A DNA stretch of 64,000 nucleotides, from assembly GCA_016183565.1 (NCBI GenBank), contig JACPEJ010000001.1, forward strand, positions 293,241 to 357,240, written 5' to 3'. Shown one piece after another: positions 34,335-64,000 of this stretch; within the stretch, counting starts at the first letter, position 1; every line of letters starts with the position of its first letter. Source of the stretch: Candidatus Blackburnbacteria bacterium. GTDB taxonomy: Bacteria; Patescibacteriota; Microgenomatia; UBA8517; UBA10165. Under the pieces are notes generated by a model that did no database searches, was not told the DNA's origin, and saw nothing but the letters and a program-made list of their open reading frames with translations. The translations under genes were made by a program, and so were the position numbers.

Positions 34335-35291
34335 ATGCGACTTGTGATAGTTATTCCCACTTATAACGAGAAAGAGAATATAGTAAACCTTTTGCACAGG
34401 ATCAATTTAACTTTTCGTGATATACGCGGTTGGACGTTGCGGGTTTTGATTGTTGATGACAATTCTCCTGATGGAACTGCGGATGCTGTGAGAGATGTTA
34501 TGAGACGTAATAGAAAAGTGTTTTTGTTATCTCGGAGTAAAAAAACTGGTTTAGGAGGGGCATACTTTTCGGGTATGGAAAGGGCGTTTAAGGAGATGGG
34601 TGCTGATGTAGTTGGGATAATGGACGCTGATTTATCGCACAACCCTGCCTATATTCCCGCTTTCTTAGGGAAGATACAGAGAGGATATGAGTTTGTGGTT
34701 GGGGCTCGGTATGTTCGAGGGGGTTCGATTCCTTCTGATTGGCCGTTATATCGGAAATTTCTTTCGGTATTTGGTAATACTATGGTTTCGGTTTTTCTTG
34801 GTAAGACTACACTAACTGATTGGACGTCCGGATATCGCTTTTTTAATAAAGACGTGTATGTGAAGGTGAGGCCTGAGATAATTGAAGATCGTGCGGAGTA
34901 TAGGGGGTATACGTTTAACATTTCTTTTGCGTATCATGCTGTGAGTGAGGGTTTTAAGATTGGCCAGGTTCCTATTAAGTTTTCCGATAGGAAAAAGGGG
35001 AAATCGAAACTTGGGTTGGAGTATCTTTTCCACACCCCTATTTTTTTATTGAAGACTCGACTTTCTATATTGAGAAAAGGTATAGTGAAAAGATCGAGAG
35101 TTGTAATTAGAGTTTGTTCCAGAACTCAATCTGTGGGGCCTGTCGGGAGCTCGTCCTCGGCCCGTATATCCTCGTCCGCCAGCTGGCGGACTGCGGGCGC
35201 TCGGCGGGACTCCTCGTTCGAGTCTGAGCCTGAGGGCTCATCCCTCAGAGTCGAAGACCTCCGCTCCCGACACCCACTTAGAAATTTTTAG
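34335..35291 (+). CDS. GT2 polyprenol-phosphate mannose/glucose synthase (DPM1/Ppm1-like), 3' end replaced by a GC-rich element; probably truncated
   Basis: VIVIPTYNEKENI...VDDNSPDGT...DAD motifs. Collinear with 35293..36519 to about residue 255, then a low-complexity Ser/Arg/Ala tail encoded by the GC-rich element. Lacks the paralog's GtrA-like TM domain. Confidence 0.75.
   Translation: MRLVIVIPTYNEKENIVNLLHRINLTFRDIRGWTLRVLIVDDNSPDGTADAVRDVMRRNRKVFLLSRSKKTGLGGAYFSGMERAFKEMGADVVGIMDADLSHNPAYIPAFLGKIQRGYEFVVGARYVRGGSIPSDWPLYRKFLSVFGNTMVSVFLGKTTLTDWTSGYRFFNKDVYVKVRPEIIEDRAEYRGYTFNISFAYHAVSEGFKIGQVPIKFSDRKKGKSKLGLEYLFHTPIFLLKTRLSILRKGIVKRSRVVIRVCSRTQSVGPVGSSSSARISSSASWRTAGARRDSSFESEPEGSSLRVEDLRSRHPLRNF
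35133..35278. other. GC-rich (~65%) palindrome-dense structured element; candidate ncRNA or small inserted element
   Basis: 10-bp closing helix TGTCGGGAGC (35141..35150) / GCTCCCGACA (35263..35272). Internal hairpins: perfect 16-nt palindrome TCCGCCAGCTGGCGGA (35175..35190), GACTC/GAGTC (35208..35224), CTGAGGG/CCCTCAG (35230..35248). Translation in the host ORF frame is low-complexity. Confidence 0.45.
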
Positions 35292-37771: not shown

Positions 37772-38515
37772 ATGGCTCAGAAACTTACGTTGAGTGTTAT
37801 TTTGCCTGTTTATAATGAGGAGAAGGATGTACCTAGAAATGTTCCTATTCTCTATAAGTATCTGAAAGAGAATTTTACTCAATATTCTTGGGAACTTATC
37901 ATTGCTGATAATGGTCCTTCTAAAGATAGAACTCCGGAAATCTCGAAAGAACTAACTAAGAACTATAGGAGTTTGTTTTATATTTGTATTCCACGGCCAG
38001 GGCGTGGGGGTGCGTTAAAAGAAGTTTGGCAAAAGCGAAAAAGTGACTACCTTTGCTATATGGATGTTGATTTGTCTTCAGATCTTTCCTTTTTGTCTCA
38101 ACTTATTTCCTTTCTAGAGAATGGTGCTGATATTGCTATCGGTTCACGTCTTAAGAGGGGGGCTAAGGTGTATGGTCGGACACTCTTACGTGAGATAATG
38201 TCCAGAGGCTATAATATCTTGATCCGAACCTTCTTTTGGACAAGCTTCTGCGATGCTCAGTGTGGATTCAAAGCGATTAGAAAAGAAGCAGCGATGAAGC
38301 TTTTACCGTATGTGGAGGATAAAGGTTGGTTTTTTGATTCAGAACTTTTGATAACTGGCGAGAAAGCGGGGTTTAAAATTAAAGAAGTTCCTATAGTTTG
38401 GCGTGATGATCCTGCTTCAACTGTTAAGGTTGCAAAAACTGCTTGGGGGGATATTAAGGGACTAGCAAGGCTTTTTATCACCAGGCCATGGAAAAAAATT
38501 CAAAATTCAAAATAA
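37772..38515 (+). CDS. GT2 glycosyltransferase (DPM/DPG-synthase-like); last 7 codons and stop lie in heptamer repeats
   Basis: ILPVYNEEKD...IIADNGPSKD...DVDLS motifs. C-terminus ...PWKKIQNSK* is encoded by AAAATTC repeats. Confidence 0.85.
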   Translation: MAQKLTLSVILPVYNEEKDVPRNVPILYKYLKENFTQYSWELIIADNGPSKDRTPEISKELTKNYRSLFYICIPRPGRGGALKEVWQKRKSDYLCYMDVDLSSDLSFLSQLISFLENGADIAIGSRLKRGAKVYGRTLLREIMSRGYNILIRTFFWTSFCDAQCGFKAIRKEAAMKLLPYVEDKGWFFDSELLITGEKAGFKIKEVPIVWRDDPASTVKVAKTAWGDIKGLARLFITRPWKKIQNSK

Positions 38516-40074
38516 AATTGCTTCCTTCGGAAGGGCAAAATTCAAAATTAAAATTCAAAATTCAAAATTTTCAGAAGTGGATGTCAACAAACAGATATGA
38601 ATTTGCTCTTCTAGTTTTTATCCTCATTCTGGCCACCCTTTTTAGACTTTGGAGAATAGATGAGTACTTGCCATTTTTAGGTGACGAGGGGCGAGACGTA
38701 AGGGTAGTAAGACGTTTTGTGACGGATTTTGATTTGATGTTTATAGGGCCGAGAACTTCGATTGGTGATATGTACCTTGGCCCCTTGTTTTACTATCTTA
38801 TTGCCCCTGGGCTTTTGTTTGCTAATTTCTCACCAGCTGGCCCAGCTACCACTGTAGCACTTTTTGGTGTTGCAACGGTTTTTTTGATTTGGCGGGTTGC
38901 TCGCGAATGGTTTGGTAGGGAAGCTGCAATTATTTCATCTTTTCTTTTTGCGATTTCTCCCTTGGTGGTAAATCTATCGAAGCATTCCTGGAATCCGAAC
39001 ATCATGCCCTTTTTTGCTCTTTTGTCAGTTTATAGTATTTGGAGGGTGTGGAGTAAAGGAGAGTATCTGTGGTTTTTAGTACTTGGAGGAGCGTACGCTT
39101 TTGTTCTTCAGTCTCACTATCTGGGTTTGCTTCTGGGACCTGTGTTAGGGCTGTCGGGGTTGTTAGGGTGGTTGGGAGCAAGAAGGGCACGCACAACAAA
39201 AAGTTTTCTTGTTTTCTTGTTTTCAGGTTCCTTAGTTTTTATCGTTTTAATGTCCCCTTTGTTTATTTTTGATTCCAAGCATGGTTGGCATAATACGCAG
39301 GCTATAGCCACTTTTTTTACCAAGAGACAAGAAACTGTTTCTGTCAAGCCGTGGAATGCTGTACCTCTAACATGGCCTATTTGGAAAGATAAGGTTGTTA
39401 ATGATCTTTTGACAGCTGGTAATCAAAACCTGGCTTTATATGTAGCGTTAGGTTTGTTGCTTGCTTGTCTTTGTGTGTTTCTCGAAAGCAGGAGAAAGCT
39501 TTCCTCTCTTGTACCTTTTGGTCTGACTGTTTTTTGGATATTAGTGGGTCTTTTGGGTTTGGGGTCTCTTAAACAAAATGTTTATAGCCATTATTTTGGA
39601 TTTATGTTTCCGGCGGTATTTCTTTTGATTGGGGCTATTACCGGGTTTTTTTGGAAAGGCAGGACGAGATGGGTGGTTGTACTTGCTATAGCTGTGTTGA
39701 TAACGATCAACTTACAAAAAAATCCCCTTTTCCTGCCTCCCCAGAGGCAGATGCAGAGAGTTCAAGAAATTGATAAAAAAATTCTCAAAGAAGCGGATAG
39801 CGAGCCCTTTAATTTTGCTTTAATTGCTAAGAGAAATTATGAGGAAGGTTATCTTTATTTCTTTGAATTATGGAATTCGCCGGTTCGGGAAATCAACGCT
39901 CAGAATACTCGTGATACTTTAACTGAGCAACTTTTTGTTGTTTGCGAAGACCCTGTTTGTGAGCCGATTAATAATGCTAAAGCTGAAATTGCGAATTTTG
40001 GTTGGGCGAAAATAGAAAGTGAAGAGCAAATTGGGGGTGTAAAATTGTACAAACTAGTTCACACAAAACAATGA
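38488..40074 (+). CDS. GT-C glycosyltransferase, GT39/ArnT-like
   Basis: FLGDEGRD...IGP.TSIGD...GPLFYYLIAPG motif and 11+ TMs. The ATG at 38488 adds a Lys-rich 31-aa leader from the repeat element; the native start may be the Met at ~38581 (MSTNRYEF...). Confidence 0.75.
   Translation: MEKNSKFKIKLLPSEGQNSKLKFKIQNFQKWMSTNRYEFALLVFILILATLFRLWRIDEYLPFLGDEGRDVRVVRRFVTDFDLMFIGPRTSIGDMYLGPLFYYLIAPGLLFANFSPAGPATTVALFGVATVFLIWRVAREWFGREAAIISSFLFAISPLVVNLSKHSWNPNIMPFFALLSVYSIWRVWSKGEYLWFLVLGGAYAFVLQSHYLGLLLGPVLGLSGLLGWLGARRARTTKSFLVFLFSGSLVFIVLMSPLFIFDSKHGWHNTQAIATFFTKRQETVSVKPWNAVPLTWPIWKDKVVNDLLTAGNQNLALYVALGLLLACLCVFLESRRKLSSLVPFGLTVFWILVGLLGLGSLKQNVYSHYFGFMFPAVFLLIGAITGFFWKGRTRWVVVLAIAVLITINLQKNPLFLPPQRQMQRVQEIDKKILKEADSEPFNFALIAKRNYEEGYLYFFELWNSPVREINAQNTRDTLTEQLFVVCEDPVCEPINNAKAEIANFGWAKIESEEQIGGVKLYKLVHTKQ
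38494..38572. repeat. Repeat element copy 2: AAAATTC-type heptamer repeats on both sides of the hairpin core TGCTTCCTTCGGAAGGGCAAAA (38519..38540)
   Basis: Seen in sequence. Spans the stop of GT2 37772..38515 and the first ~28 codons of ORF 38488..40074. Confidence 0.75.
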
Positions 40075-46618: not shown

Positions 46619-47209
46619 TTATTCAACTTTCAGGAGTTCTACTTCGAAGATAAGTGGGGAATTTGGAGGGATGTTGCCCACGCCTCTTTCGCCGTATGCG
46701 AGATTAGCAGGGATTAAAAGTTTTCTTTTGCCTCCGACCTTCATTCCCAAAACTCCCATGTCCCAACCTTGTATAACTTCGCCTGCTCCCAGATTGAAAG
46801 TAAAAGGAGCGTTTCGGTCATAGGAACTATCGAATTTTTGTCCGTTTGTCAGAGTTCCTACATAATTTACTGTAACTCTTGCGCCGGAGGTTGCTTCGGG
46901 TCCTTCTCCGACTACAAGGTCTGCGGCTTTTAGTTGGGTAATTTGTTCTTCTGTTTTCATTTCTTTGTCTGGTTCTGGTGTGGTTTTATTTTTTTGACTG
47001 GTTTGGTTTTGCTCGGCGGATAACTGGGTGGACAAGACAGGATTTGCTGATGCATTGGTGGATTCTTCTCCAAGTATAGTACTTGGCTGTTTTTTAGTAC
47101 TGTTTTGTCCGAAAACAAGTGCTCCAATGCCTCCAATTGCAATAATCATTACGAGGATCAGTATGGTATTTCTTGCAACTTGATCCGATCTTGATTCCTC
47201 CACGCTCAA
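46619..47209 (-). CDS. FKBP-type peptidyl-prolyl cis-trans isomerase with N-terminal TM anchor
   Basis: C-terminal FKBP domain (GQKFDSSYDRNAPFTFNLGAGEVIQGWDMG...LIFEVELL). Confidence 0.85.
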   Translation of the reverse strand: MSVEESRSDQVARNTILILVMIIAIGGIGALVFGQNSTKKQPSTILGEESTNASANPVLSTQLSAEQNQTSQKNKTTPEPDKEMKTEEQITQLKAADLVVGEGPEATSGARVTVNYVGTLTNGQKFDSSYDRNAPFTFNLGAGEVIQGWDMGVLGMKVGGKRKLLIPANLAYGERGVGNIPPNSPLIFEVELLKVE

Positions 47210-47247: not shown

Positions 47248-48099
47248 TTAGGTAATGATGAAAATGTCTTGTTTTGAGTCACTTGTTCCTATGAATTCTC
47301 CTCCTCTACGATAGACTATCTCGAAGGGTTGGCATACGAAACAACCCACCTCTCCTTTTGGACACTTAAAACTTTGAAGTTGTCTTGCGAGTTTCATCCT
47401 TTTTGCAGTTTCGAGGACTTTTTCGTAGGCTTCGCTTGCATTGGGTAATCCAACTTCTTTTGGTGTGTTTTCTCGATCTAGGTACCAGTAACTTGCTTTG
47501 CTGACTTTTCTTTTTTGGAGGTTTGTTGCAAGGAGAAGATAGATGGGTAGTTGTAGAGAGTTTTCATCTTCGTCATGCTTCCCAGTTTTGAAGTCAACAA
47601 CATGGACGCTATCCTCTTCTTGTAGATATTCTAACCAATCGATTTTTCCACAAAGGATGATATTGTCTTTTTCCGATAGTAAGTAGTGTGGAGGGAGCCC
47701 TGAATCTTGTTTAATCTTTATGGCTTTATTGAGGAGCATACCGGGGTTTTCTAAAACTCTTTTTATCATACCCTTACCTCTTTCTTTGTACTCTGACTCC
47801 TCGTTCTCGTTTTTAAACCCTCCCGCTTTTCCTGAGATTTTACTCCACACTTCCTCAAATTGGTTGTGAAGCGATCTGTTAAGTCGCTGTTGGGCAGGTA
47901 GAACTGATAAGGATTCCAGTACGTCATGAACTGCTTGGCCTAAAGCCAGAGGTGGTTGCATTATGCTTATTCGATTGCCTGTTTTTGGGTTTTTGTAAAC
48001 GTGAGCAAGATAGTAGGCGCGCGGACACTGAAGGAACTTTACGATTGATGAGTGCGATACCCAGACAGTAGAATAGGGGTCCCGATTCACAAGCCTCAA
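47248..48099 (-). CDS. Cas4-like / RecB-family PD-(D/E)XK nuclease with 4-Cys (Fe-S) cluster, stand-alone
   Basis: N-terminal Cys in VKFLQCPRAYYL. Motifs IDWLEY and VVDFKTGK (D...D/ExK). QLPIYLLL (QhxxY). C-terminal CPKGEVGCFVC. No CRISPR array nearby. Confidence 0.6.
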   Translation of the reverse strand: MRLVNRDPYSTVWVSHSSIVKFLQCPRAYYLAHVYKNPKTGNRISIMQPPLALGQAVHDVLESLSVLPAQQRLNRSLHNQFEEVWSKISGKAGGFKNENEESEYKERGKGMIKRVLENPGMLLNKAIKIKQDSGLPPHYLLSEKDNIILCGKIDWLEYLQEEDSVHVVDFKTGKHDEDENSLQLPIYLLLATNLQKRKVSKASYWYLDRENTPKEVGLPNASEAYEKVLETAKRMKLARQLQSFKCPKGEVGCFVCQPFEIVYRRGGEFIGTSDSKQDIFIIT

Positions 48100-48250
48100 T
48101 TTACTCTTGGATTAATCAACCGTCAATTGGGTCAAACTGGGTCTTTTTAGTGCATTGACTGGGTGGTTTTAGACCGTTCGGGGAGTAAACAGGTAGACTA
48201 GAACCCCGAGGGCTAATACAACTCGTTTCAAAACTTGTAGATTAGTCTTA

Positions 48251-48451
48251 TTAGATTTTTTGAAACGAGATTGGAGAATTGGTTCTGATTATCATGATTG
48301 GTATTTCATTGTCTGATGTAATCACGACCGGTCTATCGAGCCCAGGCCTGTCATATATTAGATGGTCCCCTTTTGTTCTTTTTAATTTACACCCGATAAA
48401 CTTAAGAAACTTTTCAAATTTTCTTCTTTTGATTGGGGACAGCTGAGGCAT
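48251..48451 (-). CDS. hicA: HicA-family type II toxin (mRNA interferase)
   Basis: FLKFIGCKLKRTKGDHLIYDRPG...PVVIT resembles the HicA KGSHxxY core. 1-nt gap from the upstream hicB-like gene. Confidence 0.65.
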   Translation of the reverse strand: MPQLSPIKRRKFEKFLKFIGCKLKRTKGDHLIYDRPGLDRPVVITSDNEIPIMIIRTNSPISFQKI

Positions 48452-48452
48452 T

Positions 48453-48743
48453 TCAACAAGTTGGGTGGATTGTAAAATCTTGAGTTGCGCTTTCTACTAC
48501 GATTGGAGGGACCCACTCTTTCCTCTGTTTTTGCCAGCCTAGTTCAGACAGGACTTTATTGAGAGTACCCTTTTCTGATAACTCCTCGAGAAATACTTCG
48601 ACAACTTCTGCAAATCTTTTTTTCGCCTGGCCGAATGTTTTTCCTGAAGTGGCAAGATCCAGAGCTGGTGTATAGGCAACATAGTGTTTGCCTTCCTTAA
48701 GGACTAGAACGTGCAGAGAGATGTTGTAGTTTAACTGTGGCAT
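48453..48743 (-). CDS. hicB: HicB-family antitoxin (UPF0150 RNase-H-like fold)
   Basis: VLKEGKHYVAYTPALDLATSGKTFGQAKKRFAEVVEVFLEEL matches the HicB N-domain pattern. TTATACT -10 just upstream. Confidence 0.65.
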   Translation of the reverse strand: MPQLNYNISLHVLVLKEGKHYVAYTPALDLATSGKTFGQAKKRFAEVVEVFLEELSEKGTLNKVLSELGWQKQRKEWVPPIVVESATQDFTIHPTC

Positions 48744-48927
48744 GGTGAGTTTAGTATAACACTGGTTTGTAAGGATTGCATTTTTATCGTACCTGGAACC
48801 CTAATTTAAACCTTTTCCACATGTCTTCGGAGACTACGGAGACCTCCTCGCCGTCTACCCTAATTGCGTCTTGATCGTCGGGAGCATAGAAAGTTAAGGG
48901 TTGGGTTAGAATTTGGTAAGTACGTGG

Positions 48928-49737
48928 CTAATTTTTCTTTTGAAGATTTATCTTAAGCTGGTTAAGCCTTTTTATAGATAGGTCTAGATATTTTTGATTT
49001 ACGTCAATTCCTACAAACTTTCTGCCGTAAAGGTATGCTTCAAGGCCTGTGGTTGAGCTGCCGGTAAAAGGATCAAGGACGAGATCGCCTTGAAGGGTCG
49101 ATGCAAGAATGATTCTTCGCAAAAGTGCTGTGGGTTTTTGAGTTGGGTGTTTTCCAAATTTTTGCTCTTCTGGTCTAACGGAGTTTATTGCCCAAACACT
49201 TCTCATTTGCTCTCCAGGACTTTTTAGAAAATCTTCATTCCAGTTTGCATCTTTTACATATTTGTAATTGAATCTGTGTTTGGCGTTTTTATTTTTCTTT
49301 GCCCAGATGAGGGTTTCGTGGCTTGCTGTAAAAAACCTTTGACTTAAGTTGTAAGGAGCATTGGGTTTATACCACACAATTTCATTTAGTATGTGGAACC
49401 CTAGTTTTTGGAGCGCAAAGCCACAGGTGTGGATTGAGTGATAAGTGCCGCTTACCCAGATAGTGCCGTTGGGCTTTAAAACTCTTTGGCATTCCTTGAG
49501 CCAGGTCCGGTGGAATTCGAAATCTTTCTCTAGTCCTTGGCTCTTGTCCCATCCTCCCTTGTTGACAATTGTTTTGTGTCCAGAGTAAACACTAAATCCG
49601 TTATTTGATAGTCTATATGGAGGATCGACAAAGATAAGATCGAATTGTTCTCCAGTAAAATGGGGTAGTAGTTTTATGCAATCGCCAAGATAGAGTTTGA
49701 AGTTGTTGTTTTCAAAGTATGCTTTTGGCATGCTCAA
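48928..49737 (-). CDS. Beta-class DNA methyltransferase (N6-adenine or N4-cytosine), orphan
   Basis: Motif IV FVDPPY precedes motif I DPFTGSSTTG (beta-class order). ParB-less MTase_D12/N6_N4 family. Confidence 0.85.
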   Translation of the reverse strand: MSMPKAYFENNNFKLYLGDCIKLLPHFTGEQFDLIFVDPPYRLSNNGFSVYSGHKTIVNKGGWDKSQGLEKDFEFHRTWLKECQRVLKPNGTIWVSGTYHSIHTCGFALQKLGFHILNEIVWYKPNAPYNLSQRFFTASHETLIWAKKNKNAKHRFNYKYVKDANWNEDFLKSPGEQMRSVWAINSVRPEEQKFGKHPTQKPTALLRRIILASTLQGDLVLDPFTGSSTTGLEAYLYGRKFVGIDVNQKYLDLSIKRLNQLKINLQKKN

Positions 49738-49745
49738 ATATATAA

Positions 49746-51290
49746 TTGTGTCCAGTTATTGTCAAAGTGATGCTAAAATTAAGTGTGAGGAAAATATTAC
49801 CTTTTGTTGTAATTTTTGGTGTGGTTCTAGCGTTTTATTATCCGGCTCTTTCTACTTTTTTTAGCCAGGATGATTTCTTTCATATTAAGATAAGTCAAAC
49901 TGATGGGAGTATTAAAAGTTTTCTTGGTCTTTTTGGTTTTTACCCTTTTGAAGAAAAAGGGATTGCTTTTTACAGACCGGTTTTTCGTGAACTCTTGTTT
50001 AATGTTTTTTATTCCATTTTTGGTTTAAATCCTTTTCCGTATAGGGTTTTATCTTTTGGAATACATTTTATAAACATTATTCTTGTTTATTGTTTGATCA
50101 AAAGACTTTTTAACAAAACTGCCATTTCTTTGTTTACTGCTTTTTTCTTTAGCATAAGTTCGGCAAACGTTGCGACTTTTTATTACTTCACTGGAGGTAT
50201 ACAGATATTAGGGGCAACAATGTTCATGCTTTTGGCTTTGATTTTGTTTTGGGATTACCTAAAAACAAATAATAAAAATAGGAAGAAGCTTGCATTAGCT
50301 CTATCGATACTTGCACTGGGTTCTCACGAACTTTCTGTTGTTACGCCCGTTTTGTTGTCGGGGATGATTTTCATATTTAAACCTTTTAAGAAGACATTAA
50401 GGCAGATAGTAAAGGACTTGTGGCCGCTTGGAGTTTTAATTATTATATATCTGTGGTTAGAGGTAAATGTAATTGGTTTTTCTAAAGCAGAGGAACAGTA
50501 CCAAACTGTTTTTTCAATTAAAAGAACCCTAAATACTTTATCTTGGTATTATGTTTGGGCGTTAGGATTGCCTGAGATGTTGATAGATTTTGTTTTTCCA
50601 GGGTTGAAGTTAAATCCCAGCCTGATAAGATACTGGGGTGGATATTTTAAAATAATTTTCCCAACTTTTTTTGTATCTACTATAATTTTTTTGTCTTCGT
50701 GTTTTTATTTGCTTTCTAAACACTTTTCTGTTTTAAAAAACAGGCGATTGGTTTTTTTGGTAGTTTGGTTTCCTTTGGTAATGTTGCCTGTTCTTTTATT
50801 GCCACTTCATAAATCCACATATTATCTGATGCCGGCATTGACTGCTTTTTGGGGAGTAGTTGGGTTTATTACCCTTTCAGCCTACTCTTTATTTTCGAAG
50901 AAGTGCCGAATGTTAGGAAGGTTTATATTGGGGGTTCTTTTGGTAGCGCTTTTTCTTTTGTCTGGAACATCTGCGGTTCTTGGTCGAACTACTTATTGGG
51001 CGGCATCTAGGGGTAAAATTGCCGCGGGAATTATTGGGCAAGTGAAATCTCTTTATCCAGATATTCCAAAAGGGAGTGTTTTTTATTTTACTAACGACCC
51101 CTCTTATCCTTTTGTTGCAAAAGATTGGGGAGGGACATCAAAGCAAGCCGCGTTTGTTTTAAATGGAAGTGATGCCTTACAGCTTCTTTACAAAGATCCC
51201 ACTATTCAAGTTTTTTATGAAGATCTAGGTAAACCTTCTTTTTATATTCCTCCGGAGAAGATATATACGCTGGTTGCCAGGATCCGGTAG
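49746..51290 (+). CDS. GT-C-type polytopic membrane protein (PMT/TMTC-like DD motif)
   Basis: FSQDDFFHI motif in the first loop (compare FVWDDEEL in 20317). 12+ TMs. Confidence 0.45.
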   Translation: MCPVIVKVMLKLSVRKILPFVVIFGVVLAFYYPALSTFFSQDDFFHIKISQTDGSIKSFLGLFGFYPFEEKGIAFYRPVFRELLFNVFYSIFGLNPFPYRVLSFGIHFINIILVYCLIKRLFNKTAISLFTAFFFSISSANVATFYYFTGGIQILGATMFMLLALILFWDYLKTNNKNRKKLALALSILALGSHELSVVTPVLLSGMIFIFKPFKKTLRQIVKDLWPLGVLIIIYLWLEVNVIGFSKAEEQYQTVFSIKRTLNTLSWYYVWALGLPEMLIDFVFPGLKLNPSLIRYWGGYFKIIFPTFFVSTIIFLSSCFYLLSKHFSVLKNRRLVFLVVWFPLVMLPVLLLPLHKSTYYLMPALTAFWGVVGFITLSAYSLFSKKCRMLGRFILGVLLVALFLLSGTSAVLGRTTYWAASRGKIAAGIIGQVKSLYPDIPKGSVFYFTNDPSYPFVAKDWGGTSKQAAFVLNGSDALQLLYKDPTIQVFYEDLGKPSFYIPPEKIYTLVARIR

Positions 51291-63602: not shown

Positions 63603-64000
63603 TGAAGGAACTATCTGTAGTAATTGTTAATTATAATACTGGTGAGTTGTTGGGAAAATGTGTTGATTCAGTCAAAAAAACAGCAGGGTTCGCTGAAATT
63701 ATAGTTGTTGATAATGCATCGACTGATGGATCGGGCCGCGCTTTGCGGAATTTTCAATTTTCAATTTTCAATTTTCAATTTATAGAAAACAAAAAGAACT
63801 TGGGGTTTGCAAGGGCTGTAAATCAGGGAATAAAAAAAGCGAAGGGGGAATATATTCTGCTTCTCAACCCTGATACTGTTGTTGAGCCAAAGGCGATTGA
63901 TAATATGCTTCAGTTTGCAAAGCTGGAACCTTCTGTGGGTGCAATAGGTGCTAGGTTGTTGAATCCAGACGGTTCGGTTCAGGGGTCTGTTATGCACTTT
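63602..64000 (+). CDS. GT2 glycosyltransferase (3'-truncated by window edge) containing an in-frame heptanucleotide repeat tract
   Basis: ATG at 63602 overlaps the upstream TAA (TAATG). MKELSVVIVNYNTGELL...VVDNASTDGS...ENKKNLGFARAVNQG. Not in the ORF track because there is no stop within the window. Confidence 0.8.
   Translation, partial: MKELSVVIVNYNTGELLGKCVDSVKKTAGFAEIIVVDNASTDGSGRALRNFQFSIFNFQFIENKKNLGFARAVNQGIKKAKGEYILLLNPDTVVEPKAIDNMLQFAKLEPSVGAIGARLLNPDGSVQGSVMHF
63740..63772. repeat. Heptanucleotide tandem repeat (AATTTTC)x4 plus a partial unit inside the GT2 coding sequence
   Basis: Encodes NFQFSIFNFQF between the DGS and ENKKNLGFA motifs. Unit length is not a multiple of 3. Confidence 0.85.

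What the first reader, a model, noticed from the sequence alone, without database searches (positions are those of the whole stretch)
47248..49737. Minus-strand islet inside the glycosylation cluster: Cas4-like Fe-S nuclease, hicBA and an orphan DPPY methyltransferase
Four consecutive minus-strand genes interrupt a plus-strand glycosyltransferase run. They are a stand-alone Cas4/RecB-family PD-(D/E)XK nuclease with the 1+3 cysteine Fe-S signature (no CRISPR or cas genes nearby), a HicB-HicA toxin-antitoxin pair, and a beta-class DNA methyltransferase with no adjacent canonical restriction endonuclease. The GC-rich spacer 48838..48885 between hicB and the MTase shares motifs with the structured element at 35.1 kb. 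This could be a compact defence or addiction module: an MTase with a Cas4-like nuclease as unconventional restriction partner, stabilised by hicBA. Alternatively it is a remnant of a mobile element.
Basis: partly seen in the sequence, partly recalled or inferred. Interest (0 to 1): 0.55.

Follow-up and report, generated by a model that had tools for sequence, protein, structure and literature searches.

The report
Core nuclease beside unrelated accessory genes
The four genes are real, but they are not one defence module: a nuclease conserved across the phylum sits next to a lone DNA methylase of restriction-system ancestry and a recently inserted, partly broken toxin-antitoxin pair, which is ordinary genome patchwork.

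Summary
All four minus-strand ORFs exist at the stated coordinates, and the family calls hold: a PF12705 Cas4-family Fe-S nuclease, HicA, a HicB-like protein and a beta-class DPPY N6_N4 methyltransferase. A fifth minus-strand gene, an FKBP isomerase, belongs to the same run. The window comes from a Candidatus Blackburnbacteria (CPR/Patescibacteria) chromosome.

The module idea fails.
- **Nuclease:** it is a slowly evolving, vertically inherited CPR gene. It is 53-73% identical in the 80 best of at least 510 related stretches in species genomes. It sits between the same glycosyltransferase genes in Blackburnbacteria relatives, and it has its own conserved promoter-like site. Its neighbours elsewhere are essentially random.
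- **Methyltransferase:** it lies near the nuclease only in the window's immediate subclade. None of 50 methyltransferase-centred metagenome loci carries the nuclease. Its closest homologues are instead followed by dedicated Type II restriction enzymes, which this window lacks.
- **hicBA:** it is found only in this strain. It is a small mobile cassette seen in unrelated contexts elsewhere, and its hicA has lost the conserved 3' end.

The GC-rich spacer resembles the 35.1-kb element no more than chance, and it has no unusual fold. Verdict: ordinary mosaic, low interest.

The parts
46619..47209 (-). FKBP-type peptidyl-prolyl isomerase. This is the fifth gene of the minus-strand run, downstream of the nuclease. 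At this position it is found only in the window's own strain.
   Evidence: ORF. FKBP_C at 3.5e-36. Among 82 nuclease loci, an FKBP gene flanks the nuclease only rarely, and not in the syntenic relatives L001, L008, L010, L015 or L057.
47248..48099 (-). Stand-alone Cas4-family (PF12705) PD-(D/E)XK nuclease with a 4-Cys Fe-S signature, conserved across CPR. The likely true start is GTG at 48090, giving 280 aa.
   Evidence: The 280-aa gene call is on the same-strain contig L088. The homologues' N-termini align to M-x-RDPY.
48098..48126 (-). Promoter-like site TTGACG-17-TAAATT immediately upstream of the nuclease start. It is conserved in the sister genomes L001 and L008 as TTGACC-17-TTAAAG. The -10 element ends 7 nt before the GTG.
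   Evidence: Scan; three-way alignment. That it functions as a promoter is inferred.
48222..48269 (.). Perfect 12-bp inverted repeat (CTCGTTTCAAAA / TTTTGAAACGAG, 24-nt loop) spanning the hicA stop codon. It lies where homology to intact hicA genes breaks down.
48251..48451 (-). hicA toxin gene, truncated at its 3' end. It encodes 66 aa against 76 aa in all three distinct homologues. The conserved C-terminus NLRTLKMSPENFLEIIKKV is replaced by SPISFQKI.
   Evidence: HicA_toxin at 31.8 bits, covering model positions 2-49, against 2-56 in homologues. Nucleotide homology to L090 ends at window position 48278. Alignments.
48453..48743 (-). HicB-like antitoxin of 96 aa, with no recognisable DNA-binding domain. 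It lies 1 nt upstream of hicA.
   Evidence: NCBI and JGI name it a HicB family protein, and the family has only 25 members. Pfam HicB_lk_antitox reaches only E 0.15. The AF2 model has pLDDT 89, and its top PDB matches are 2yzt and the antitoxin 3k6q, both with weak E-values. A HicA gene lies directly downstream in L090, L091, L092 and L093.
48744..48927 (.). Non-coding spacer between the methyltransferase stop and the hicB start. It contains the 60%-GC patch at 48838-48885 and an extended -10-like TGTTATACT 9 nt before the hicB ATG. It occupies the slot where methyltransferase homologues carry a restriction enzyme gene.
   Evidence: Sequence. No similarity to the 35.1-kb element beyond chance. 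No unusual fold and no Rfam hit. No restriction-enzyme remnant by tblastn. No match to any fetched locus.
48928..49737 (-). Solitary beta-class (DPPY) N6_N4 DNA methyltransferase of Type II R-M ancestry. The likely start is ATG at 49731, giving 267 aa.
49737..49765 (-). Promoter-like site TTGACA-17-TATATT (11 of 12 matches) directly upstream of the methyltransferase ATG, with a 5-nt gap. It is back to back with the start of the plus-strand glycosyltransferase gene.
   Evidence: That it functions as a promoter is inferred.

Best explanation
The 'islet' is a mosaic that built up at a variable spot of a Candidatus Blackburnbacteria chromosome. It is not a functional unit.

1. **Nuclease.** It is the resident gene: a vertically inherited, strongly conserved, CPR-wide solo Cas4-family Fe-S PD-(D/E)XK nuclease, transcribed from its own promoter. 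By fold it matches the nuclease domains of AddB, AdnAB and RecB and the ssDNA endonuclease ACE1. It most likely processes single-stranded or end-containing DNA in housekeeping repair or recombination. This function is inferred, not shown.
2. **Methyltransferase.** It belongs to a horizontally spread Type II R-M lineage. It was acquired, or kept, without its restriction enzyme in the ancestor of the window's subclade. It now acts as a solitary m6A methylase, and its target sequence is unresolved.
3. **hicBA.** It is a small mobile two-gene toxin-antitoxin cassette. It inserted between the methyltransferase and the nuclease promoter in this strain's lineage only. Its toxin gene has since lost the conserved 3' end, so it is probably attenuated or decaying.
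4. **FKBP.** It is a further lineage-specific neighbour.
For: **Source.** The methyltransferase and HicB match 100% to proteins that NCBI assigns to Candidatus Blackburnbacteria, on a 686-kb contig. The window also encodes SecA, Lon, a class II tRNA synthetase and MgsA.

**Nuclease**
- 6263 homologues at E <= 0.001. The best 120 are 56-73% identical, and source names place many of them in several CPR classes.
- At least 510 related stretches in GTDB species genomes; the best 80 are 53-73% identical.
- Only 61 clusters at 50% identity reach E <= 1e-30 in 1.84 billion representatives, so the family is compact and slow-evolving.
- It lies between the same glycosyltransferase genes in L001, L008, L010, L015 and L057.
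- A neighbour-joining tree nests the window within L001/L003/L008, then within L010/L015/L057, then within a 27-member clade that includes several Woesebacteria.
- It is the most conserved gene of the locus against L001: 73%, compared with 52-67% for the flanking genes.
- 148 immediate neighbours from about 78 species fall into 182 Pfam families. None recurs more than 4 times, and N6_N4_Mtase is not among the families seen more than once.
- A promoter-like site is conserved upstream.
- Fold matches are ACE1, AdnAB, AddB and RecB.

**Methyltransferase**
- It is near the nuclease only in L001/L002, L008 and L003; L048 has a weak, distant relative.
- 0 of 50 methyltransferase-centred loci carry the nuclease.
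- Homologues at 60-66% identity are followed directly by DpnII-type, MutH/Sau3AI-like or DUF6996/6997 (PADLOC REase_II) enzymes, or by a 173-188-aa family with weak PD-(D/E)XK hits.
- None of these partner enzymes is encoded in the window.

**hicBA**
- It is present only in same-strain contigs L004-L007 and L088.
- Homologous pairs sit in unrelated contexts in L090-L093.
- The sister genome L001 has a 74-bp gap where the window has about 830 bp.
- hicA truncation is shown.

**Block as a whole.** No flanking repeats and no GC anomaly across it.
Against: - The methyltransferase lies within 2.5 kb of the nuclease in all four members of the nuclease subclade: the window, L001, L008 and L003. This is non-random as a raw count. 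It may reflect only one or two ancestral events, but a clade-specific functional link is not excluded.
- The nuclease's best PADLOC hit is the Argonaute-associated Cas4-like nuclease model (8.4e-14), and its best structural match is ACE1. ACE1 is a defence component, and solo Cas4 proteins have been reported to interfere with plasmids (cited in PMC12094033).
- No biochemical or methylome data exist for any of these proteins.
- The truncated HicA still passes the Pfam threshold and keeps the GDH histidine, so residual toxicity is possible.
- 'Core' status is inferred from conservation and distribution, not from a complete presence/absence census.
Confidence: 0.8

Rival explanations
1. Unconventional restriction-modification pair. 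In this Blackburnbacteria subclade the solitary methyltransferase marks self DNA, and the adjacent Cas4-family nuclease has been co-opted to degrade unmethylated incoming DNA.
For: The methyltransferase is adjacent to the nuclease on the same strand in the window, L001/L002 and L008, and 2.5 kb away in L003. These four form one nuclease subclade. No canonical restriction enzyme is present. Hudaiberdiev et al. note solo-Cas4 next to R-M genes in some DPANN archaea (PMC5704561).
Against: - The same nuclease occurs without any detectable N6_N4 methyltransferase within 8 kb in 76 of 80 species loci, with all catalytic and Fe-S residues invariant and no extra domain.
- 0 of 50 methyltransferase-centred loci carry it.
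- Methyltransferase homologues have their own dedicated restriction enzymes.
- The nuclease hits no PADLOC REase model.
- Each gene has its own promoter-like site.
- The hicBA insertion split the pair without any visible consequence.
- Structural relatives are ssDNA or end-processing nucleases, not sequence-specific dsDNA cutters.
Confidence: 0.04
2. The whole 2.5-kb block is the remnant of a single mobile element that carried the nuclease, hicBA and the methyltransferase together.
For: Strand inversion relative to the surrounding plus-strand genes. The block contains a TA pair and a methyltransferase, both typical cargo of mobile elements. The locus is variable among relatives.
Against: - The nuclease sits at the same position between the same glycosyltransferase genes in relatives that lack both the methyltransferase and hicBA (L010, L015, L057).
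- The three components have different phylogenetic depths.
- There are no terminal direct or inverted repeats beyond chance.
- GC content equals that of the flanks.
- No integrase or transposase ORF lies in or next to the block.
Confidence: 0.05
3. The nuclease is itself an innate, stand-alone defence enzyme (solo-Cas4 interference with foreign DNA) that became fixed across CPR. On this reading it acts independently of the methyltransferase and is not a repair enzyme.
For: The best PADLOC model is Aga_Cas4-like_Nuc. The top structural match is ACE1. MaACE1 alone modestly reduces plasmid content, and solo-Cas4 interference has been reported (PMC12094033). CPR genomes often lack CRISPR-Cas yet are rich in solo Cas4 (PMC5704561).
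Against: - The family shows very slow, vertical evolution with no arms-race signature. Only 61 clusters at 50% identity reach E <= 1e-30, and the tree is congruent with synteny.
- It is not found in defence islands; its neighbours are housekeeping genes of many kinds.
- No Argonaute partner appears among the neighbour families that recur.
Confidence: 0.12
4. The methyltransferase is a domesticated regulatory or epigenetic orphan, in the manner of CcrM or Dam, rather than a passive relic of an R-M system.
For: Its closest solved relative is CcrM (185 bits). It is retained without a restriction enzyme at the same position in the sister lineages L001 and L008 at 57-63% identity. It has a strong promoter-like site of its own. 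PADLOC's orphan-methyltransferase model also hits, at 2.3e-66.
Against: - It lacks the CcrM C-terminal domain and scores 226 bits against the 830-bit cut-off of the CcrM model.
- It is absent from this locus in the next-closest relatives L010, L015 and L057.
- Its closest homologues are in R-M pairs.
- The window and L001 copies are not each other's nearest relatives: rank 87 of 138, and rank 10 in the reverse direction.
Confidence: 0.25

Closest known systems
Solo Cas4-family nucleases of CPR bacteria (pfam12705 / Cas4-like; Hudaiberdiev et al. 2017, PMC5704561)
   Same: A stand-alone protein of about 280 aa with the D...DxK and QxxxY motifs and one N-terminal plus three C-terminal cysteines. 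It is encoded outside CRISPR-cas loci, inherited mainly vertically, and found in small-genome CPR bacteria.
   Different: Nothing separates it from this group; it is simply a member. Its biochemical role remains uncharacterised in the literature I could search.
[quoted passage not shown]
   Same: It is the best structural match (Foldseek E about 1e-7, TM 0.53-0.62) and the best PADLOC model. Size and the Fe-S 'iron staple' are similar.
   Different: Sequence identity is only 14-18%. No pAgo gene is adjacent here, and none appears among the neighbour families that recur across CPR loci. ACE1 was reported only from cyanobacterial pAgo operons.
Nuclease domains of AddB, AdnA/AdnB and RecB
   Same: The same PD-(D/E)XK fold, and in AddB and AdnAB the same 4-Cys cluster. 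This suggests a role in DNA end processing.
   Different: Those domains are fused to helicase or translocase modules of 800-1200 aa. This protein stands alone, and no conserved helicase neighbour was seen.
Type II R-M beta-class m6A methyltransferases (CcrM/M.HinfI-like and DpnA-like; PF01555)
   Same: The DPPY motif precedes the FxGxG motif. It scores 185 bits to the CcrM catalytic domain and 8.9e-96 to a PADLOC MTase_II model. Homologues at 60-66% identity sit in restriction-enzyme pairs.
   Different: No cognate restriction enzyme is present here and the CcrM C-terminal domain is missing. Specificity is unresolved, because partners of close homologues include GATC-type enzymes (DpnII, MutH/Sau3AI-like) as well as other, uncharacterised enzymes.
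HicAB type II toxin-antitoxin systems
   Same: The HicA_toxin domain passes the Pfam cut-off. A small upstream partner has a HicB-like N-terminal fold. The two genes are separated by 1 nt. The pair is conserved in four other loci.
   Different: The gene order is hicB then hicA. HicB is short, at 96 aa, with no recognisable HTH or RHH domain and no significant Pfam hit. HicA lacks the last 19 conserved residues of its own subfamily.

Membership tests
CRISPR-associated Cas4 (TIGR00372 / PF01930) | PD-(D/E)XK catalytic motifs plus a 4-Cys Fe-S cluster (1 N-terminal, 3 C-terminal) | tested here: met
   D154, D169-x-K171, QLPIY, C25, C246, C253 and C256 are invariant. The cysteines are present in 119 of 120 homologues.
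CRISPR-associated Cas4 (TIGR00372 / PF01930) | Score above the curated family threshold | tested here: not met
   TIGR00372 scores 39.5 bits against a cut-off of 65. PF01930 scores 24.8 against 22.7, which is marginal and far below PF12705 at 86.9.
CRISPR-associated Cas4 (TIGR00372 / PF01930) | Genomic association with cas1/cas2 or a CRISPR array | tested here: not met
   No CRISPR-like array in the 64-kb window. No cas family among the recurring families of 148 neighbours in CPR loci.
Type II restriction-modification system (methyltransferase plus nuclease as the restriction enzyme) | A methyltransferase with a Type II profile | tested here: met
   PADLOC MTase_II at 8.9e-96. PF01555 at 1.7e-59.
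Type II restriction-modification system (methyltransferase plus nuclease as the restriction enzyme) | The adjacent nuclease matches a restriction endonuclease family | tested here: not met
   The nuclease hits only Cas4-like and DruK models in PADLOC, and no REase model. The partner enzymes of methyltransferase homologues are absent from the window.
Type II restriction-modification system (methyltransferase plus nuclease as the restriction enzyme) | The two genes co-occur across genomes | tested here: not met
   An N6_N4 methyltransferase lies near the nuclease in only 4 of 80 GTDB species loci plus L001 and L003. The nuclease is near the methyltransferase in 0 of 50 loci.
Type II restriction-modification system (methyltransferase plus nuclease as the restriction enzyme) | Methylation-sensitive, sequence-specific cleavage | not testable with these tools
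   This needs biochemistry and methylome data.
HicAB toxin-antitoxin | HicA_toxin domain above the Pfam gathering score | tested here: met
   31.8 bits against a cut-off of 27.
HicAB toxin-antitoxin | Full-length toxin domain | tested here: not met
   The match covers model positions 2-49 of 58, against 2-56 in the three 76-aa homologues. Nucleotide homology ends 27 nt before the stop codon.
HicAB toxin-antitoxin | Partner with a HicB fold or family signature | tested here: inconclusive
   Pfam HicB_lk_antitox reaches E 0.15. The top Foldseek hits are 2yzt and the antitoxin 3k6q, at probability 1.0 but E 0.02-0.1. NCBI and JGI name it HicB.
HicAB toxin-antitoxin | Conserved adjacency of the two genes | tested here: met
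   A HicA homologue lies directly downstream of the HicB homologue in L090, L091, L092 and L093.
CcrM-type cell-cycle orphan methyltransferase | CcrM-like catalytic domain | tested here: met
   6PBD at 1.2e-53 and 185 bits.
CcrM-type cell-cycle orphan methyltransferase | CcrM C-terminal domain and an equivalog-level score | tested here: not met
   The protein ends at 269 aa. NF050803 scores 225.7 bits against a cut-off of 830, matching model positions 6-252 of 350.
ACE1 (Argonaute-associated Cas4 family enzyme) | Operon with a long-A pAgo | tested here: not met
   The neighbours here are FKBP and hicA. No Argonaute family appears among the recurring families of 148 neighbours.
AddB/AdnAB/RecB nuclease domain | Fusion to, or a conserved operon with, a helicase-translocase | tested here: not met
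   It is a stand-alone protein of 280-283 aa. No recurrent helicase neighbour was seen. The fold similarity itself is met.

The most novel reading that the evidence does not exclude
In the small Blackburnbacteria subclade that includes this genome, the phylum-wide core Cas4-family nuclease may have been functionally coupled to the solitary methyltransferase acquired next to it. Methylation would then tell self DNA from non-self DNA for a housekeeping end-processing nuclease. That would be a minimalist R-M-like arrangement built on a core repair enzyme.
Probability: 0.04. Interest if true: 0.7.

Novelty: new member of a known kind. Interest (0 to 1): 0.17.

Why it matters
As a defence-system lead it does not hold up, and this saves follow-up effort.

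Two smaller points remain of some use:
- **Nuclease family.** It is a strikingly conserved, apparently phylum-wide and still uncharacterised CPR enzyme. It is 53-73% identical in the 80 best species loci, and only 61 clusters at 50% identity reach E <= 1e-30. It may stand in for the nuclease part of AddAB/RecBCD-type end processing in these reduced genomes, and it is a reasonable target for biochemistry.
- **Locus history.** The locus is a clean small example of accessory genes accumulating and decaying around a core gene in a reduced genome: a restriction-less methyltransferase, then a TA cassette that has since lost part of its toxin gene.

Tried and rejected
- **Spacer versus the 35.1-kb element.** The local alignment score was 12, against 10.3 +/- 1.4 in shuffles, and 84 of 500 shuffles scored as high. 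Rejected.
- **Structured RNA in the spacers.** Fold z-score +1.1, and no Rfam hit at E <= 1 except a chance snoRNA match. Rejected.
- **Flanking direct or inverted repeats marking an element.** Only short matches at chance level.
- **Compositional island.** GC across the block (0.40-0.44) equals that of the flanks.
- **Remnant of a restriction enzyme gene.** tblastn of 13 partner proteins against the region and the whole window gave nothing below E 0.01.
- **Conserved operon partner for the nuclease.** None was found among 148 neighbours.
- **Sequence search of the PDB with the nuclease profile.** Only weak ACE1 hits. The fold search was more informative.
- **Methyltransferase specificity from motif depletion.** GATC is the most depleted 4-mer palindrome (169 observed against 228.6 expected, z -5.6). 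GANTC is mildly depleted (160 against 189.5), like several other palindromes. This is suggestive of a history of GATC restriction but not decisive. Partners of close homologues point to more than one specificity.
- **Window versus L001 methyltransferase as sister genes.** Identities are saturated at 60-68%, so this is unresolved.
- **Exact-protein lookup of the 283-aa nuclease.** It failed because public gene calls use other start codons.
- **Literature search for a characterised CPR homologue.** Nothing beyond the 2017 Cas4 phylogenomics paper.


Full report
**Observation**

The six-frame ORF list shows five consecutive minus-strand ORFs between plus-strand membrane glycosyltransferase genes:
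- 46619-47209, 196 aa
- 47248-48099, 283 aa
- 48251-48451, 66 aa
- 48453-48743, 96 aa
- 48928-49737, 269 aa

Pfam assigns them as follows:
- FKBP_C, 3.5e-36
- PDDEXK_1, 2.8e-24, with Cas_Cas4 marginal at 24.8 bits against a cut-off of 22.7
- HicA_toxin, 31.8 bits against a cut-off of 27
- nothing for the 96-aa ORF
- N6_N4_Mtase, 1.7e-59

The flanking genes are PMT_2-type glycosyltransferases and a Polysacc_synt flippase. The run has five genes, not four. HicB is not recognisable by Pfam (E 0.15). hicA is not intact, as described below. I found no CRISPR-like array. The minus-strand ORFs I tested elsewhere in the window gave no meaningful PADLOC defence hits.

**Source and context**

The methyltransferase and HicB are 100% identical to proteins that NCBI assigns to a Candidatus Blackburnbacteria MAG, on a 686-kb contig. 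Same-strain Logan contigs L004-L007 and L088 are 100% identical in nucleotide sequence across the region. Elsewhere the window encodes SecA, Lon, a class II tRNA synthetase, MgsA and many glycosyltransferases. It is an ordinary chromosomal region of a CPR bacterium.

**The nuclease**

Conservation and distribution:
- A database search returned 6263 homologues. The best 120 are 56-73% identical over 96-100% of the query (the one exception is a truncated gene call of the window's own protein). Several carry Patescibacteria, Saccharimonadales, Pacebacteria, Magasanikbacteria or Blackburnbacteria names.
- In a 24-sequence alignment C25, C246, C253, C256, D154, D169, K171 and the QLPIY motif are invariant. 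119 of 120 homologues keep the 1+3 cysteines.
- An exhaustive HMMER scan of 1.84 billion representatives at 50% identity found only 61 clusters at E <= 1e-30. Thousands of sequences therefore collapse into a few clusters, so the family is compact and evolves slowly.
- A scan of GTDB species genomes found at least 510 relatives. The best 80 are nearly all named as CPR or are CPR-like MAGs.

Synteny and inheritance:
- tblastn of the window's proteins against these loci shows the nuclease between the same glycosyltransferase genes in L001, L008, L010, L015 and L057.
- A neighbour-joining tree nests the window with L001, L003 and L008, then with L010, L015 and L057, then in a 27-member clade that includes several Woesebacteria. 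This pattern indicates vertical inheritance.
- Against L001 the nuclease is the most conserved gene of the locus: 73%, compared with 52-67% for the neighbours.

Neighbours and transcription:
- Pfam scans of 148 immediate neighbours from about 78 species gave 182 families. None recurred more than 4 times, and no methyltransferase, cas, Argonaute or helicase partner recurred.
- A promoter-like TTGACG-17-TAAATT lies 7 nt upstream of an in-frame GTG at 48090. It is conserved as TTGACC-17-TTAAAG in L001 and L008.
- The GTG start matches the N-termini of the homologues and the 280-aa public gene call.

Fold:
- An AlphaFold model (pLDDT 86.7) matches best the Argonaute-associated Cas4-family enzyme ACE1 (9IAB/9IAC, TM 0.53-0.62).
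- It then matches the nuclease domains of AdnAB, AddB and RecB, and more weakly RecE, MGME1 and Cas4.
- ACE1 is an ssDNA endonuclease that is homologous to repair-complex nuclease domains (PMC12094033).
- Hudaiberdiev et al. already reported that solo Cas4-family genes are common and mainly vertically inherited in CPR, with unknown function (PMC5704561).

I conclude that the nuclease is a resident, housekeeping-type gene. An ssDNA or end-processing role in repair or recombination is my inference from the fold.

**The methyltransferase**

Family assignment:
- It has the beta-class motif order, DPPY followed by FTGSSTTG.
- It scores 185 bits to the CcrM catalytic domain but lacks the CcrM C-terminal domain. 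It scores 226 bits against the 830-bit cut-off of the CcrM model.
- Its best PADLOC models are MTase_II (8.9e-96) and an orphan-methyltransferase model.

Association with the nuclease:
- Among nuclease loci it appears only in L001/L002 (adjacent, 74-bp gap), L008 (adjacent) and L003 (2.5 kb away). L048 carries a distant 26%-identical relative.
- The reciprocal test used 50 methyltransferase-centred metagenome loci at up to 66% identity. None carries the nuclease within 6 kb.

Partners of the homologues:
- Most homologues are followed at once, on the same strand, by a small gene.
- These partners include a DpnII restriction enzyme (9.6e-103), a MutH/Sau3AI-like enzyme, DUF6996/DUF6997 proteins that hit PADLOC REase_II (about 1e-32), and a 173-188-aa family with weak PD-(D/E)XK hits.
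- None of these partners is detectable anywhere in the window.

The methyltransferase therefore belongs to a Type II R-M lineage and is solitary here. The specificity is unresolved. GATC is the most depleted 4-mer palindrome in the window (z -5.6), and GANTC is mildly depleted.

A strong promoter-like site, TTGACA-17-TATATT, ends 5 nt before the ATG at 49731.

**hicBA**

Evidence that it is a real, mobile pair:
- The HicB-like family is small, at 25 hits, and NCBI and JGI name it HicB.
- A model with pLDDT 89 has as its top PDB matches 2yzt and the antitoxin 3k6q, though with weak E-values.
- Homologous HicB genes are each followed directly by a HicA gene, in unrelated contexts: next to Fic in L091, between fusA and NUDIX/dnaG in L092 and L093, and in a region of L090 carrying Bro-N, SLFN-type helicase and PDDEXK_1 genes.

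Insertion in this lineage only:
- The cassette occurs in this strain only.
- L001 has 74 bp between the methyltransferase and the nuclease, where the window has about 830 bp.

Damage to hicA:
- All three distinct homologues encode 76-aa HicA proteins ending in a conserved NLRTLKMSPENFLEIIKKV. The window's HicA is 66 aa and ends SPISFQKI.
- Nucleotide homology to L090 stops at 48278, which is 27 nt before the stop codon.
- Pfam coverage is model positions 2-49, against 2-56 in the homologues.
- A perfect 12-bp inverted repeat spans the junction.

The toxin gene is therefore damaged at its 3' end. That it is attenuated is my inference.

**Spacer and boundaries**

- The 48838-48885 patch is 60% GC, but its similarity to the 35.1-kb element is at chance level.
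- It has no unusual fold and no Rfam match.
- It has no counterpart in any fetched locus.
- The block has no flanking repeats and no GC anomaly.

**Synthesis**

The nuclease is the ancestral occupant of a variable gap between glycosyltransferase blocks. The content of that gap differs in every relative. I infer three later steps:
1. A methyltransferase without its restriction enzyme arrived in the ancestor of the subclade.
2. A hicBA cassette then inserted in this lineage.
3. The cassette has since begun to decay.

The mobile-remnant reading is only partly right.

Residual uncertainty:
- The clade-restricted proximity of the methyltransferase and the nuclease could still hide a functional link. 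I give this about 4%.
- The nuclease could be an innate defence enzyme rather than a repair enzyme. I give this about 12%.

**Novelty and score**

Every component is a new member of a known family, and standard pipelines already annotate each one as such. Interest is low. The only feature worth experimental attention is the uncharacterised, phylum-wide nuclease family, and its existence is already in the literature.

Noticed in passing
window 49746-51290: The glycosyltransferase gene immediately upstream of the methyltransferase, transcribed divergently from it, has markedly lower GC (0.31-0.35) than its surroundings (about 0.40-0.43). It is also the least conserved flank against L001, at 52% identity. 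It may be a replaced or fast-evolving gene.
   Followed up: no
window 35130-35280: A 67%-GC stretch lies at the 3' end of a Glycos_transf_2 ORF (34335-35291), beyond the Pfam domain. It contains an 18-nt perfect palindrome at 35174-35191. It is unrelated to the hicB-methyltransferase spacer.
   Followed up: partly
homologues P0002, P0010, P0011, P0040, P0064 and others (alignment A1): 15 of the 120 closest nuclease homologues carry a short C-terminal extension ending in a conserved [DEQ][ST]x[IVL]L tail, for example DSVIL. This could be a protein-interaction peptide. The window protein lacks it.
   Followed up: partly
window 48090-48126 and 49731-49765: Both the nuclease and the methyltransferase have -10-like hexamers ending only 5-7 nt before the likely start codon. 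This suggests leaderless or near-leaderless mRNAs.
   Followed up: no
L094, L097, L098, L100, L101, L103, L104, L106, L107, L115, L119, L121, L122, L124, L125, L136 (gene directly after the methyltransferase): A family of 173-188 aa sits directly downstream of methyltransferase homologues. It gives only weak PD-(D/E)XK (PDDEXK_11) or NucS_N hits and no PADLOC or NCBIfam hit. It is probably an unclassified small Type II restriction enzyme family.
   Followed up: partly
L001 7200-11450: In the closest relative the nuclease is surrounded by DNA-repair-type genes (UDG, NUDIX and HhH-GPD glycosylase) plus the methyltransferase. This fits a repair role but is not seen generally across CPR.
   Followed up: partly
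window 38536-38569 and 63749-63781: Short perfect or near-perfect heptamer tandem repeats, CAAAATT x5 and AATTTTC x4.7. The first lies just after the overlap of two ORFs (37772-38515 and 38488-40074).
   Followed up: no
L090 2169-4523: One hicBA homologue lies two genes from a different, 226-aa PDDEXK_1 protein that is not detectably related to the window nuclease. The context includes Bro-N and SLFN-type helicase genes. It may be a prophage or defence island.
   Followed up: no
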